Below are positions 57,380-59,751 of a stretch of DNA of 64,000 nucleotides, piece after piece. A program made the position numbers and the translations under genes. This DNA is from an uncultured Sediminibacterium sp. (GTDB taxonomy: Bacteria; Bacteroidota; Bacteroidia; Chitinophagales; Chitinophagaceae): contig CAZDQB010000005.1 in the NCBI GenBank assembly GCA_964507525.1, forward strand, positions 45,058 to 109,057, given 5' to 3'. The stretch's first letter is position 1; each line of letters starts with the position of its first letter. The notes below the pieces were generated by a model. That model had not been told where the DNA came from. It searched no databases and worked only from the letters and a program-made list of their open reading frames with translations.

Positions 57380-57841
57380 ATGAAAACAACAATTTCATTT
57401 GTATTTATTATCACTTTGTTAATGTCGTGCGAAGGAAAAACAGAGGGTGATAAAGCAAAACCAATGCCGATAGCAGGTACCTGGCAATTGATTACCGGAA
57501 CTGTTATAGAGAAAGGCGATACGGTTATTACCGATTACACCAAGAATGTATCCTTCATTAAGATCATCAATGATACTCATTTTGCTTTTTTACAGCATGA
57601 TTTGAAAAAAGGGAAGGATTCTGCTGCTGTTTTTGTTTCAGGAGGTGGCAGGTATTCAATTACCGGTAATTCGTATACCGAACACCTGGAATATTGCAGT
57701 GCAAGGGACTGGGAGGGTCATGATTTTACCTTTACAGTTACCCTGAAAAATGATACGCTCATTCAAAGCGGGGTGGAGAAAGTTGAAGGCTCAACAATAA
57801 ACAGGGTAAACACTGAAAAGTATATCAGGGTGAAAAACTAA
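57380..57841 (+). CDS. Lipocalin-like small lipoprotein
   Basis: 153 aa with lipobox LLMSCEG. IAGTWQLITG... is a typical lipocalin-like domain start. The rest is beta-rich. Confidence 0.6.
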   Translation: MKTTISFVFIITLLMSCEGKTEGDKAKPMPIAGTWQLITGTVIEKGDTVITDYTKNVSFIKIINDTHFAFLQHDLKKGKDSAAVFVSGGGRYSITGNSYTEHLEYCSARDWEGHDFTFTVTLKNDTLIQSGVEKVEGSTINRVNTEKYIRVKN

Positions 57842-58912
57842 CTACCTGTAGTAATGATTCACGGCATACTCAAACTGTTCAATAAACAGTTGCTTATATA
57901 AGGCAATATTATTCTGTTCATAGAAAAGGATCATCGCTTTTTTGTAGTCTATCGGTTTTACACTCCGGTAAGATAAAGGGCAATAACCGTTTTCAATCAA
58001 CAAGCCATTACCCGTAATCCGCCCGGTTCTTTTGTTGCCATCCTCAAAGGGCTGGATATAAGAGATCAGAAGCACTGCTAATAAAGCTTTTTCAAAAACA
58101 TTTGGTCGCTTATTAATTAAATGACAGGATTGCTCAAGGTATTCTCGGATTTGGTGCTGATTATCTGGCGGTGTATAACTAGTTCCTGTAATACCTACTA
58201 TTCGGGTGCGTATGTTACGACTTACTCCCAGTTCATCTATTAATAGACTGTGGATGTTTTCTATCGAAGCTACCTGCAACGGATCGAGACTTATGCGATG
58301 ATTAAACAAATAGTCCAATGCCTTTTTATGGTTGAGCAGCATTAGTGCTTCACCGTTTGTTTTTCCTTCTGCAGGAATATGTTGTTCAATTAATACTTCG
58401 GTTTCAAGAAGTGAATACGTGTTGCCTTCAATTTGAGAAGATTTCCAGCTGAGCTCTATGGATAGCCTTTCGTTTTCTTTCTGGCGCAAAACCGGTGAAA
58501 GCGTGCTGATCCTTTCCATGTGTAATGCCTGCAGATCGCTAAGCTTTCTCAGTTCTGCAGGCGTGAAAATGGAAACATCAGATAATTCTGCAAATACATC
58601 TGGATTGATACGCGTCTTACCTTTGCGTTCATCTATGTCTTTATCGAAATAAGAATCACCGATATCTGTATGCAGAAATTTGTGATCTTTCGGCACAGAA
58701 TAGGCCGTGCTTCTGCCTGTCCCACTTACTATAAGCTTTCCTTCTGTTACAAGCGTTTTTAGATACCGGTTAATAGTTGAGTGTGAGATATCAGATAATA
58801 AAACCTGGATTCCCGAGACTTGTATACCTGGATTTTCCCATATGACTTGTAATAATTGTGATATTCTGCTATTCTTTGCCACAGATAAAATTTTCATGTC
58901 AAAAATATGCAT
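57842..58912 (-). CDS. Fic/Doc-family protein with an N-terminal wHTH; the Fic motif histidine is replaced by glutamine
   Basis: The motif reads IQPFEDGNKRTGR, against the canonical HxFx(D/E)GN(G/K)RxxR. Codon CAG was verified on the minus strand at about 58046-58048. An inhibitory-helix-type motif SSQIEGN is present upstream. The N-terminal wHTH is HSTINRYLKTLVTEGKLIVSGTGRSTAYSV. Confidence 0.8.
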   Translation of the reverse strand: MHIFDMKILSVAKNSRISQLLQVIWENPGIQVSGIQVLLSDISHSTINRYLKTLVTEGKLIVSGTGRSTAYSVPKDHKFLHTDIGDSYFDKDIDERKGKTRINPDVFAELSDVSIFTPAELRKLSDLQALHMERISTLSPVLRQKENERLSIELSWKSSQIEGNTYSLLETEVLIEQHIPAEGKTNGEALMLLNHKKALDYLFNHRISLDPLQVASIENIHSLLIDELGVSRNIRTRIVGITGTSYTPPDNQHQIREYLEQSCHLINKRPNVFEKALLAVLLISYIQPFEDGNKRTGRITGNGLLIENGYCPLSYRSVKPIDYKKAMILFYEQNNIALYKQLFIEQFEYAVNHYYR

Positions 58913-58958
58913 TTTTCATGTCAATTGACATGAAAAATGCATATTTTTGACATGAAAA
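58891..58958. repeat. Perfect 68-bp palindrome spanning the Fic start codon
   Basis: The sequence ttttcatgtcaaaaatatgcatttttcatgtcaa|ttgacatgaaaaatgcatatttttgacatgaaaa equals its own reverse complement (checked base by base). Each arm holds two copies of TTTCATGTCAA. Confidence 0.95.
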
Positions 58959-59364
58959 GCCGTCTTGATGCTTAATTTTCCAGGAATTTGAAATCCTTCA
59001 CCCAAAAAAGCGAAATGGATTGCACTCATCGAGGAATACCAACATTTTTCAAACCATGACTTTGTGCATACCAACCAGCATCTTCGGCGATTTAGTAGTT
59101 AGATATCCTCGCCAGCAAAAAAGGGGAGTACCAGGTCATTGAATATTAATTTAAACAAGGGAATATTATCTGTCTGGTCCCAGGTAGTGTTCATAATTAA
59201 GCGCATCATTAACTGAAAACTTAAATGCTTCTTCGTTAGCCATACTGTTTTTTTATGATGCTGCGCTGGCATACAAGTTAAAAATAATGCTGTAAATTTT
59301 ACATATAATTCCCATAATTCTGTAAACCATGGATGTTTAAGTATCGTATCTTTGTAGTAAGCAA

Positions 59365-59751
59365 ATGAAAAAAGCCGCACTCATATTACTCCTCAGCCTT
59401 TATACCCTCTCTGTTGCGGGTATAGGCATCAGGCAGTTTTATTGCTGTGGCAAACTCAAATCCACCAACATCAGTTTTACCCGGGACTCAAAGCAAAAAT
59501 GCAAAAATGGTGATGAGAAGAGCGATTGCTGCAAAACAAAGTACCAGACCTTTAAAGTAAAAGACAGCCATATTGCTGCTAAAGATATCAGCAGCCCTGC
59601 TAATCAGTTTATTGATTTACACATTATTACTCCTTCGTTCGACATAACAGCATTGGTTACCAGGCCGGTAAATCATACCAATGAAAGTCACGCGCCACCC
59701 TTACATCATGGCGTACCCATTTATATCCTCAACTGCGTCTACCGGATCTGA
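59365..59751 (+). CDS. Small Cys-rich exported protein (resembles the HYC_CC_PP-type family seen next to metal efflux genes)
   Basis: Signal/TM segment MKKAALILLLSLYTLSVAG. Motifs QFYCCGK, SDCCKTK, HAPPLHHG. A TAtcTTTG box (Bacteroidetes -7 consensus TAnnTTTG) lies at 59347-59354. Confidence 0.6.
   Translation: MKKAALILLLSLYTLSVAGIGIRQFYCCGKLKSTNISFTRDSKQKCKNGDEKSDCCKTKYQTFKVKDSHIAAKDISSPANQFIDLHIITPSFDITALVTRPVNHTNESHAPPLHHGVPIYILNCVYRI

What the first reader, a model, noticed from the sequence alone, without database searches (positions are those of the whole stretch)
58891..58958. Perfect 68-bp palindrome covering the Fic start codon
The sequence 58891-58958 is exactly self-complementary, with 34-nt arms and no spacer. 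It contains four copies of TTTCATGTCAA, two per arm. The left arm includes the first seven codons of the Fic gene (MHIFDMK). The right arm therefore encodes a mirror-image MHIFDMK start on the plus strand that terminates after five more codons.

Long spacer-less perfect palindromes are rare and unstable in bacteria because of cruciform formation and SbcCD cleavage. Possible explanations are an autoregulatory operator array for the wHTH-Fic protein, an mRNA hairpin occluding the start codon, the scar of an inverted duplication, or an assembly artefact.
Basis: seen in the sequence. Interest (0 to 1): 0.62.

Follow-up and report, generated by a model that had tools for sequence, protein, structure and literature searches.

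The report
Four-site operator of a Fic gene
The perfect 68-base palindrome is real and is most likely the four-site binding array through which a DNA-binding Fic protein represses its own promoter; this layout is shared by the whole protein family and is unusual here only in being perfectly symmetrical.

Summary
Window 58891-58958 is a perfect 68-bp palindrome with no spacer and four copies of TTTCATGTCAA. It is the longest perfect palindrome in the 3.64-Mb genome.

The claim that it covers the Fic start codon does not hold. Six close relatives share a GTG start that aligns with window 58882-58880, and the upstream ATG is out of frame or absent in most of them. The palindrome therefore lies 8 nt upstream of the gene.

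The site nearest the gene overlaps a Bacteroidota -7 promoter box, TATTTTTG. This puts the predicted transcription start at about 58895.

The layout is typical of the family. Among 70 homologous loci, 21 have at least two inverted sites upstream of at least two direct sites, spaced 22 or 32 bp apart, which is 2 or 3 helical turns. The site sequence differs between clades and changes together with the recognition helix of the N-terminal winged helix.

In the own genome the motif clusters only at this promoter. An autoregulatory operator is therefore the best reading, and CccR is an experimental precedent.

The relatives' arrays are only 39-76% self-complementary. Here even the non-conserved spacers are mirrored, which suggests a recent inverted copying event.

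An assembly artefact is unlikely, but no raw reads were available. Binding, repression and the transcription start are inferred, not shown.

The parts
58891..58958 (.). Perfect 68-bp palindrome, read as a four-site operator array (O1-O4) in the Fic promoter region
   Evidence: for the palindrome itself. The family-wide four-site layout is shown.
58891..58902 (-). O1, the proximal site (TTGACATGAAAA on the Fic sense strand). It overlaps the TTTG of the -7 box and the predicted transcription start.
   Evidence: Invariant in 7 of 7 close lineages, at -20 from the conserved GTG.
58913..58924 (-). O2, the second direct site, 22 bp upstream of O1
   Evidence: Invariant in close lineages, at -42 from the GTG.
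58925..58936 (+). O3, the inner inverted site. It is intact here and degenerate in the closest relatives.
   Evidence: alignment: L097 has TTTTCATTTCA and L108 has TTTTCGCTTCA. An intact inner inverted site is common in more distant family members.
58947..58958 (+). O4, the outer inverted site
   Evidence: Present at the same position (-73 to -75) in 6 of 7 close lineages as TTTTC[A/C]TGTCAA.
58900..58907 (-). Bacteroidota sigma-A -7 box TAnnTTTG (TATTTTTG on the Fic sense strand)
   Evidence: The sequence is read. The box is invariant in close relatives and sits at -19 to -25 from the start codon in other Bacteroidota family members. The consensus and its position, -12 to -5, come from PMC9723704.
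58895..58895 (-). Predicted transcription start (+/- 2 nt), giving a 5' UTR of about 13 nt
   Evidence: Inferred from the position of the -7 box. It has not been mapped, and the RNA-labelled runs were uninformative.
58880..58882 (-). Most likely true start codon (GTG), giving the 346-aa protein MAKNSRISQLL...
   Evidence: Most homologues are 346-347 aa. The GTG aligns in all 7 close lineages. The upstream ATG is out of frame, followed by a stop, or absent in L017, L019, L097, L106 and L104.
57842..58882 (-). Gene for the wHTH-Fic protein: N-terminal winged helix, class II inhibitory motif SSQIEGN, and Fic motif QPFEDGNKRTGR with Gln in place of the catalytic His
   Evidence: Pfam Fic, E = 2.4e-13. 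Alignment to FICD. AF2 model with pLDDT 89.7 and N-terminal H-H-H-strand-strand topology. Foldseek hits to FICD, BT_2513 and SoFic. Weak wHTH hits from HMM searches.
58942..58949 (+). Mirror copy of the -7 box on the plus strand, a by-product of the perfect symmetry. It is a possible divergent promoter with a predicted start near 58954.
   Evidence: The sequence is read. An equivalent mirrored box is not seen in relatives L097 and L108, judged by eye. Function unknown.
59067..59301 (-). Deletion remnant of a methyltransferase gene that fills the upstream 'intergenic' space. It is not part of the operator.
   Evidence: Three collinear blastn fragments (84-93% identity) match a methyltransferase gene that is intact in the syntenic locus L108.

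Best explanation
The palindrome is the promoter-operator region of the adjacent gene. That gene encodes a protein with an N-terminal winged helix-turn-helix and a C-terminal class II Fic domain.

Four copies of the asymmetric site TTGACATGAAA(A) are arranged as two inverted copies (O4, O3) followed by two direct copies (O2, O1). Start-to-start spacing is 22, 12 and 22 bp, which puts all four on roughly one face of the helix.

O1 overlaps the sigma-A -7 box TATTTTTG and the predicted transcription start, about 58895. This lies 13 nt upstream of the true GTG start at 58882. The protein's own winged helix is inferred to occupy the four sites, probably as two dimers or a tetramer, and to block RNA polymerase. 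That would be negative autoregulation.

The four-site layout is ancestral to the protein family. Its perfection here, with spacers mirrored and no central spacer, is inferred to come from a recent intramolecular template switch or inverted gene conversion that copied the proximal arm onto the distal arm of an ancestral quasi-palindrome.

Shown here: the sequence anatomy, the conservation, the co-variation and the uniqueness of the site cluster. Inferred: binding, repression, stoichiometry, the transcription start and the conversion mechanism.
For: 1. Phylogenetic footprint. In seven lineages whose proteins are 78-85% identical, O1, the -7 box and O2 are invariant and O4 is nearly so. The spacers between sites vary (TGCA, AATA, GATG, TTAA, TTGA, TGTA). 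Sites sit at fixed distances of -20, -42 and -73 from a conserved GTG.

2. Family-wide arrays. 39 of 69 upstream regions carry an exact 8-mer at least three times. Control regions of the same loci give 2/63 and 3/69, and shuffles give 12/1380.

3. Canonical layout. 21 of 70 loci have at least two inverted copies upstream of at least two direct copies of an exact 7-mer. Same-orientation spacing of the direct pair is exactly 22 bp in 16 of them and 32 bp in 5. A further 15 loci have three sites.

4. Co-variation of specificity. The site core differs by clade: TTGACATGA, TTGACACGA, TGAGAGGA, TGATAGGA, TTGAGCCGA, TTGTCCCGA, GGCGCGAT, TGTAGCTC and others. The recognition helix and wing differ in step: SLSTINRDLKAL, AVSTLNRDLKAL, SIPTLNRDLAxL, PSxATLKRLIA, ISDRTLKRIIS, IGYATTKRSL and others.

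5. Uniqueness in the own genome. The motif is not enriched genome-wide, with 121 hits against 131 for a reversed control. The only cluster is this promoter.

6. DNA-binding domain. The N-terminal 70 residues are modelled as helix-helix-helix-strand-strand at pLDDT about 85. They give weak hits to HTH_24, Penicillinase_R, DeoR and MarR.

7. Precedent. The Fic protein CccR, which has a C-terminal HTH, represses its own promoter as a dimer by binding palindromes near the -35 and -10 boxes (PMC9755527).

8. Recent homogenisation. The relatives' four-site arrays are 39-76% self-complementary and this one is 100%, including spacers that are not conserved between lineages.

9. The palindrome is in the data. 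An independent k=31 assembly of the holder run breaks exactly at the palindrome borders and yields a separate 68-bp contig identical to it. This is the topology expected for a true palindrome.
Against: No binding, expression or transcription-start data exist. RNA-labelled runs either lack the locus or look like DNA.

No canonical -33 TTTG lies at the usual distance from the -7 box. This judgement rests on reading the sequence against a remembered consensus spacing.

A symmetric dimer does not obviously explain pairs of direct repeats, so the stoichiometry is open.

The 68-bp Logan contig has word depth 10.9, against 9.6 and 8.0 for the flanks. About twice the flank depth is expected if every word were counted from both arms. 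Under-representation of hairpin-forming fragments, or the counting method, could explain this, but it remains unresolved.

The only run that holds the locus is probably the source sample, so support for the exact sequence is not independent. The central junction was not found in any other metagenome contig.
Confidence: 0.75

Rival explanations
1. Assembly or library artefact. The true sequence is a quasi-palindrome or a single arm, and the perfect mirror was produced by a chimeric inverted read or by mis-traversal of the assembly graph.
For: Only one public run, probably the source sample, holds the locus. The depth of the palindrome contig is 1.2 times the flanks, not 2 times. The central junction is absent from other metagenome contigs.
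Against: Every 31-mer of the palindrome, including those spanning the centre, is present in an independent k=31 assembly. Both unique flanks attach to it, and no alternative path is reported. The outer borders and site positions coincide exactly with the ancestral array at -20, -42 and -73. A true quasi-palindrome would not collapse in a de Bruijn graph.
Confidence: 0.05
2. An RNA or DNA hairpin is the functional element. The 68-nt stem-loop in the 5' leader would hide the start codon as a translational control, or a DNA cruciform would serve as a supercoiling-sensitive switch or as a recombination or nicking site for a mobile Fic cassette.
For: The stem is very stable, at -33.9 kcal/mol and z = -9.5. 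The centre is AT-rich. The operator-plus-Fic unit behaves like a movable cassette: the genomic context differs between close relatives, and a flank fragment is duplicated in L108.
Against: The conserved start is GTG 58882, outside the palindrome, and the predicted transcription start lies inside the proximal arm. Relatives keep the sites but not the base-pairing: they are 39-76% self-complementary, and L017 has three direct copies. What is conserved is site sequence and helical phasing, not stem complementarity. There is no compensatory pattern, because the spacers simply differ.
Confidence: 0.07
3. The repeats are operators, but for a different regulator, or they mark a bidirectional promoter. 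In the second case the mirrored -7 box at 58942-58949 would drive the divergent metal-efflux cluster that starts at 59365.
For: Perfect mirroring creates a second TATTTTTG box facing the DUF8199-HMA-HMBD-CusA genes.
Against: The motif class tracks the sequence of the adjacent protein's own recognition helix across clades. The motif is found nowhere else in clusters in this genome. The mirrored box is not conserved in relatives, and the neighbouring upstream gene differs between relatives: glyoxalase, TonB receptor, methyltransferase, TatD, His_Phos. About 410 nt of methyltransferase remnant separate the box from the next gene.
Confidence: 0.08

Closest known systems
CccR of Yersinia pseudotuberculosis, a Fic protein with an HTH domain that represses its own promoter (PMC9755527)
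   Same: It is a class II Fic protein fused to a DNA-binding HTH. Inverted repeats overlap its own core promoter elements. Negative autoregulation by an oligomer has been shown experimentally for CccR.
   Different: In CccR the HTH is C-terminal, and here it is N-terminal. CccR keeps the catalytic His and AMPylates FtsZ, whereas this protein has Gln (QPFEDGNKRTGR). CccR has two palindromes near the -35 and -10 boxes of a sigma-70 promoter. Here there are four phased asymmetric sites over a Bacteroidota -7 box. The only sequence similarity is the generic Fic fold. CccR is a T6SS effector, and nothing here suggests secretion.
SoFic (SO_4266, PDB 3EQX/3ZCN) and BT_2513 (PDB 3CUC), Fic proteins with a winged-helix domain
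   Same: They have the Fic fold with an inhibitory helix and an accessory winged helix. They are structural neighbours of the model and give weak sequence hits.
   Different: Their wHTH is C-terminal and their catalytic motif is canonical. The NCBIfam SoFic score is 33.7 bits against a cut-off of 550. No operator array was found described for them in the papers searched.
Multi-site autoregulatory operators of type II/IV toxin-antitoxin and Abi systems, for example AbiEi, which binds two inverted repeats cooperatively
   Same: These are arrays of short repeats overlapping the promoter of a potentially toxic gene. They are bound cooperatively by a wHTH, give negative feedback, and the modules are mobile and patchily distributed.
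   Different: Here a single polypeptide carries both the DNA-binding and the Fic domain. No partner gene is conserved next to it.
Quasipalindrome-associated template-switch mutation, described in E. coli by Ripley and by Lovett and colleagues (cited from general knowledge)
   Same: It converts an imperfect inverted repeat into a perfect one by copying one arm from the other. That would produce exactly the mirrored spacers seen here.
   Different: This is a mutational mechanism, not a functional class. Its action here is inferred only from comparison with the relatives' quasi-palindromes.

Membership tests
Autoregulated HTH-Fic transcription factor (CccR-like) | One polypeptide carries a Fic domain and a DNA-binding HTH domain | tested here: met
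   Pfam Fic, E = 2.4e-13. The AF2 model shows an N-terminal three-helix plus two-strand winged helix. wHTH families give weak hits below threshold. The domain order is the reverse of CccR.
Autoregulated HTH-Fic transcription factor (CccR-like) | Repeated or inverted sites overlap the gene's own core promoter | tested here: met
   O1 overlaps the conserved TAnnTTTG box 13-25 nt upstream of the conserved GTG. The promoter is predicted, not mapped.
Autoregulated HTH-Fic transcription factor (CccR-like) | The protein binds those sites and represses its own transcription | not testable with these tools
   Only indirect support exists: co-variation of site and recognition helix and uniqueness of the site cluster in the genome.
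Catalytically canonical Fic AMP-transferase | Motif HxFx(D/E)GNGRxxR with the catalytic His | tested here: not met
   The motif reads QPFEDGNKRTGR and aligns to FICD's HPFIDGNGRTSR. Gln is nearly invariant in the family alignment. The distant member P0117 keeps His.
Class II Fic (intramolecular N-terminal inhibitory helix) | (S/T)xxxE(G/N) motif N-terminal to the Fic core | tested here: met
   SSQIEGN is invariant in 35 homologues and aligns with FICD's inhibitory helix region.
Long palindromes that are SbcCD substrates or replication-lethal | A perfect palindrome long enough to be cleaved or inviable, about 150-200 bp or more in E. coli by general knowledge | tested here: not met
   The palindrome is 68 bp. 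The genome tolerates other perfect palindromes of 52-56 bp. A divergent SbcD-like plus SMC-like gene pair exists in the genome, but the SbcC Pfam model finds nothing, so SbcCD status is inconclusive.
Intrinsic (bidirectional) terminator hairpin | A G+C-rich stem followed by a T-run at the 3' end of a gene | tested here: not met
   The scan found no terminator-like sites in 58500-59500. The element is AT-rich and lies at the 5' end of the gene.
Two-gene type II toxin-antitoxin operon | An adjacent small antitoxin gene co-transcribed with the toxin | tested here: not met
   No partner ORF is conserved. Upstream lies a gene remnant and downstream a convergent lipocalin-like gene. Neighbours differ in every relative.

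The most novel reading that the evidence does not exclude
The N-terminal-wHTH, His-less Fic proteins may form a large, undescribed class of single-gene, self-repressing mobile cassettes. In this reading the four-site, helically phased operator and the recognition helix diversify together so that paralogues stay insulated from one another. The Fic-like domain would act as a sensor or non-canonical effector rather than an AMP-transferase. In this genome, a template-switch event would have turned the operator into a perfect 68-bp palindrome that could also extrude as a cruciform and create a second, divergent promoter.
Probability: 0.2. Interest if true: 0.6.

Novelty: new variant of a known kind. 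Interest (0 to 1): 0.36.

Why it matters
On its own, the palindrome is an ordinary regulatory element in an unusually perfect state. It is not an unstable oddity, and it does not overlap the coding sequence. This corrects the gene start from the longest-ORF ATG at 58912 to GTG 58882.

The wider value lies at the family level. The family is very large: 8000 of 8000 scored candidates hit. Its members lack the catalytic histidine and carry a stereotyped four-site operator with 22- or 32-bp phasing, whose sequence co-evolves with the recognition helix. This gives a ready-made natural data set of paired protein and DNA specificities for a winged helix. It also gives a testable hypothesis that these Fic proteins are tightly self-repressed. 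Finally, it offers a natural candidate example of a quasi-palindrome made perfect by template switching.

Tried and rejected
1. sigma-70 promoter and terminator scan of 58500-59500. It found nothing relevant, because the consensus does not suit Bacteroidota.

2. Mapping the transcription start from public RNA runs. No RNA run holds the window's locus. For the orthologue L017, the runs labelled RNA give contigs that run evenly across genes and spacers, so they look like DNA carry-over and are uninformative.

3. Looking for the same junction elsewhere. The exact 22-mer centre gave 0 hits in metagenome contigs. A relaxed pattern, TTCATGTCA-N0-6-TTGACATGAA, matched 112 stretches. In the 112 loci examined, none lay next to a Fic homologue or had three or more sites, so they are chance matches.

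4. Searching for a regulon. The motif is not enriched in the genome and has no second cluster.

5. Same-genus orthologues. Five of the 36 other same-genus genomes have a homologue, at 47-51% identity, so they are not useful for fine comparison.

6. SbcCD presence. Only a divergent SbcD-like and SMC-like gene pair was found, which is inconclusive.

7. PADLOC gave partial SoFic and PDC-S04 hits to the Fic domain only. This is not evidence of a defence role.

8. A canonical -33 box was not found at the spacing I recall for Bacteroidota promoters.

Full report
**1. Observation**

Window 58891-58958 is a perfect palindrome of 68 bp, with 34-nt arms and no spacer. Each arm has the form site-10 nt-site. 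The 11-mer TTTCATGTCAA occurs at 58892 and 58914 on the plus strand and at 58925 and 58947 on the minus strand, and nowhere else in the window even with one mismatch allowed.

It is the longest perfect palindrome in the 3.64-Mb, 30-contig genome. The next longest, at 52-56 bp, look like terminators. As single-stranded DNA it folds at -33.9 kcal/mol, against -11.7 +/- 2.3 for shuffles. The longest minus-strand ORF does begin inside the left arm, at ATG 58912 (MHIFDMK), and the mirrored plus-strand mini-ORF exists.

**2. Is the palindrome real?**

Only one public run holds the locus. It is a wastewater metagenome and probably the source sample. Logan's independent k=31 contigs of that run break exactly at the palindrome:
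- one contig ends at 58920;
- one contig starts at 58929;
- a separate 68-bp contig is identical to 58891-58958.

This is the graph topology expected for a true perfect palindrome, in which the words of one arm are the reverse complements of the words of the other. It also means that all 31-mers, including those across the centre, occur in reads.

A quasi-palindrome would not collapse in this way. One detail is unexplained: the word depth of the 68-mer is 10.9, against 9.6 and 8.0 for the flanks, where about twice the flank depth would be expected. No raw reads were available. I rate an artefact at about 5%.

**3. The gene and its start**

The adjacent minus-strand gene encodes a Fic-domain protein (Pfam E = 2.4e-13).
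- It has a class II inhibitory motif, SSQIEGN.
- Its core motif is QPFEDGNKRTGR, which aligns to HPFIDGNGRTSR of FICD. The catalytic His is Gln and the second Gly is Lys.
- An AF2 model (pLDDT 89.7) shows an N-terminal helix-helix-helix-strand-strand winged helix followed by the Fic fold.
- The N-terminus gives weak hits to wHTH families.

Homologues are overwhelmingly 346-347 aa. In six close lineages (76-84% DNA identity; 78-85% protein identity) the called start is a GTG that aligns with window 58882-58880, giving MAKNSRISQLL.

The ATG inside the operator is out of frame in L017, L019 and L097, is followed by a stop in L106, and is absent in L104 and L018. MHIFDMK is therefore an artefact of taking the longest ORF. 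The palindrome ends 8 nt upstream of the real start.

**4. What the palindrome is**

*Footprint in close relatives.* Aligning the upstream regions of the seven close lineages gives a textbook phylogenetic footprint.
- TTGACATGAAAAA (O2) and TATTTTTGACATGAAAA (the -7 box plus O1) are invariant.
- The outer inverted site TTTTC[A/C]TGTCAA (O4) is kept at the same position in six of seven.
- The spacers between sites differ in every lineage.
- Sites lie at -20, -42 and -73 from the GTG in all of them. This genome adds an intact inner inverted site at -51, which is degenerate in the nearest relatives.

*Promoter.* TATTTTTG matches the Bacteroidota sigma-A -7 box TAnnTTTG, which occupies -12 to -5 (PMC9723704). 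This predicts a transcription start near 58895 and a 13-nt leader. O1 would then cover the -7 box and the start, which is the position of a repressor site.

*Family-wide pattern.*
- 39 of 69 upstream regions contain an exact 8-mer at least three times. Control regions give 2/63 and 3/69, and shuffles give 12/1380.
- 21 of 70 loci show the same design as here, with at least two inverted copies followed by at least two direct copies. Spacing of the direct pair is exactly 22 bp in 16 of them and 32 bp in 5, which is 2 or 3 helical turns. A further 15 loci show a three-site version.
- The site sequence is clade-specific: TTGACATGA, TTGACACGA, TGAGAGGA, TGATAGGA, TTGAGCCGA, TTGTCCCGA, GGCGCGAT, TGTAGCTC and others. 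It changes together with the recognition helix and wing of the N-terminal domain.

*Own genome.* The motif is not enriched (121 hits against 131 for a reversed control), and its only cluster is this promoter.

*Conclusion.* Together these results point to a dedicated operator array bound by the gene's own product, giving negative autoregulation. There is an experimental precedent. CccR of Yersinia pseudotuberculosis is a class II Fic protein with a C-terminal HTH. As a dimer it represses its own promoter through palindromes near the -35 and -10 boxes (PMC9755527).

**5. Why it is perfect here**

Four-site arrays in other family members are 39-76% self-complementary, because only the sites are symmetric. 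Against the mirror of the proximal arm, the distal arm matches:

| Locus | Matching positions |
|---|---|
| L097 | 29/34 |
| L106 | 25/33 |
| L108 | 21/27 |
| This genome | 34/34 |

The spacers are not conserved between lineages, yet they are mirrored exactly within this genome. The symmetry therefore cannot be explained by selection on the sites alone. It indicates a recent event that copied one arm from the other. An intrastrand template switch, which is the known way quasi-palindromes become perfect, is the most economical mechanism. This is inference.

A relaxed search for arrays with an intact, closely apposed inner pair of this motif found none next to a Fic gene in metagenome contigs.

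**6. Rivals**

- *mRNA hairpin masking the start.* This is unlikely. The start codon lies outside the palindrome, the predicted transcription start lies inside the proximal arm, and relatives conserve sites and phasing rather than pairing. L017 has three direct copies.
- *Terminator.* Excluded by position and composition.
- *Cruciform-based or recombination function.* Not excluded, but nothing supports it.
- *Divergent promoter.* The mirrored -7 box (58942-58949) could make the region bidirectional. It is not conserved in relatives, and about 410 nt of gene remnant separate it from the next gene.
- *SbcCD instability.* The argument is weak for 68 bp. The genome has only a divergent SbcD-like/SMC-like pair, so its SbcCD status is unclear.

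**7. Context**

The gene is patchy. Five of the 36 other same-genus genomes have a homologue, at 47-51% identity. Proteins with 84-85% identity occur in other Bacteroidota MAGs, for example a Sediminibacterium MAG.

The upstream neighbours differ in every relative. The space between the palindrome and the next gene is a deletion remnant of a methyltransferase gene that is intact in the syntenic locus L108. L108 also carries a copy of the 3' end of the lipocalin-like gene, which lies downstream of Fic here, just upstream of its own operator. This fits earlier scan notes that operator-plus-Fic units move as small cassettes.

**8. Verdict**

The palindrome is a real, well-explained regulatory element: the canonical four-site autoregulatory operator of a wHTH-Fic family, in an unusually perfect state. 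It is a new variant of a known kind, autoregulated HTH-Fic proteins. Binding, repression, the transcription start and the conversion mechanism remain to be shown.

Confidence in the main explanation is 0.75, and interest is 0.36.

Noticed in passing
window 59067-59301 (minus strand): Three collinear fragments (84-93% identity) match a methyltransferase gene of about 270 aa that is intact at the same place in the syntenic locus L108. The 'intergenic' 400 bp upstream of the palindrome is therefore a deletion-riddled gene remnant.
   Followed up: partly
L108 2840-2890 versus window 57797-57846: L108 has a stretch of about 50 bp, 88% identical to the 3' end of the lipocalin-like gene, immediately upstream of its Fic operator. 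That gene lies downstream of Fic here and in L100. This suggests the operator-plus-Fic unit moves as a cassette bounded by a duplicated host-gene end. The arrangement is not resolved.
   Followed up: partly
window 57842-58882 and family alignment A1: The Fic core motif reads QPFEDGNKRTGR. Gln replaces the catalytic His and the Lys is Doc-like. Gln is nearly invariant across the family, while the distant member P0117 retains His (IHPFMDGNKRTAR). The inhibitory SSQIEGN motif is invariant.
   Followed up: partly
L104 about 2800-2900: Upstream of its own CGTGTCAA-type array, this relative carries four copies of TTGTAGCTA. A different clade of the family (L086, L090) uses that site type. It may be a relic of another cassette, or a sign of cross-regulation.
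   Followed up: no
L106 3001-5192 and L107: Two convergent Fic paralogues (346 and 338 aa) sit side by side. In L107, which covers the same region, an AbiEii/NTP_transf_5-like gene lies a little further on. The context resembles a defence island.
   Followed up: no
own genome C18:13910-13965, C4:143267-143318, C22:6630-6681, C1:187408-187461: These are other perfect palindromes of 52-56 bp, with arms of 25-27 nt and loops of 0-4 nt. They are probably bidirectional terminators. They show that this genome tolerates palindromes of that size.
   Followed up: no
own genome C11:18704-23494: An SbcD-like metallophosphoesterase (443 aa) lies next to a 1152-aa protein with weak SMC_N/AAA_23 hits. The SbcC_Walker_B model finds nothing in the genome, although it hits 12 of 14 control genomes. 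The genome may have a divergent SbcCD or none.
   Followed up: partly
window 57380-57841 (plus strand): A 153-aa lipocalin-like, probably lipoprotein, gene ends exactly where the convergent Fic gene ends: the two stop codons abut at 57841/57842. The same pairing is seen in the Sediminibacterium-type locus L100.
   Followed up: no
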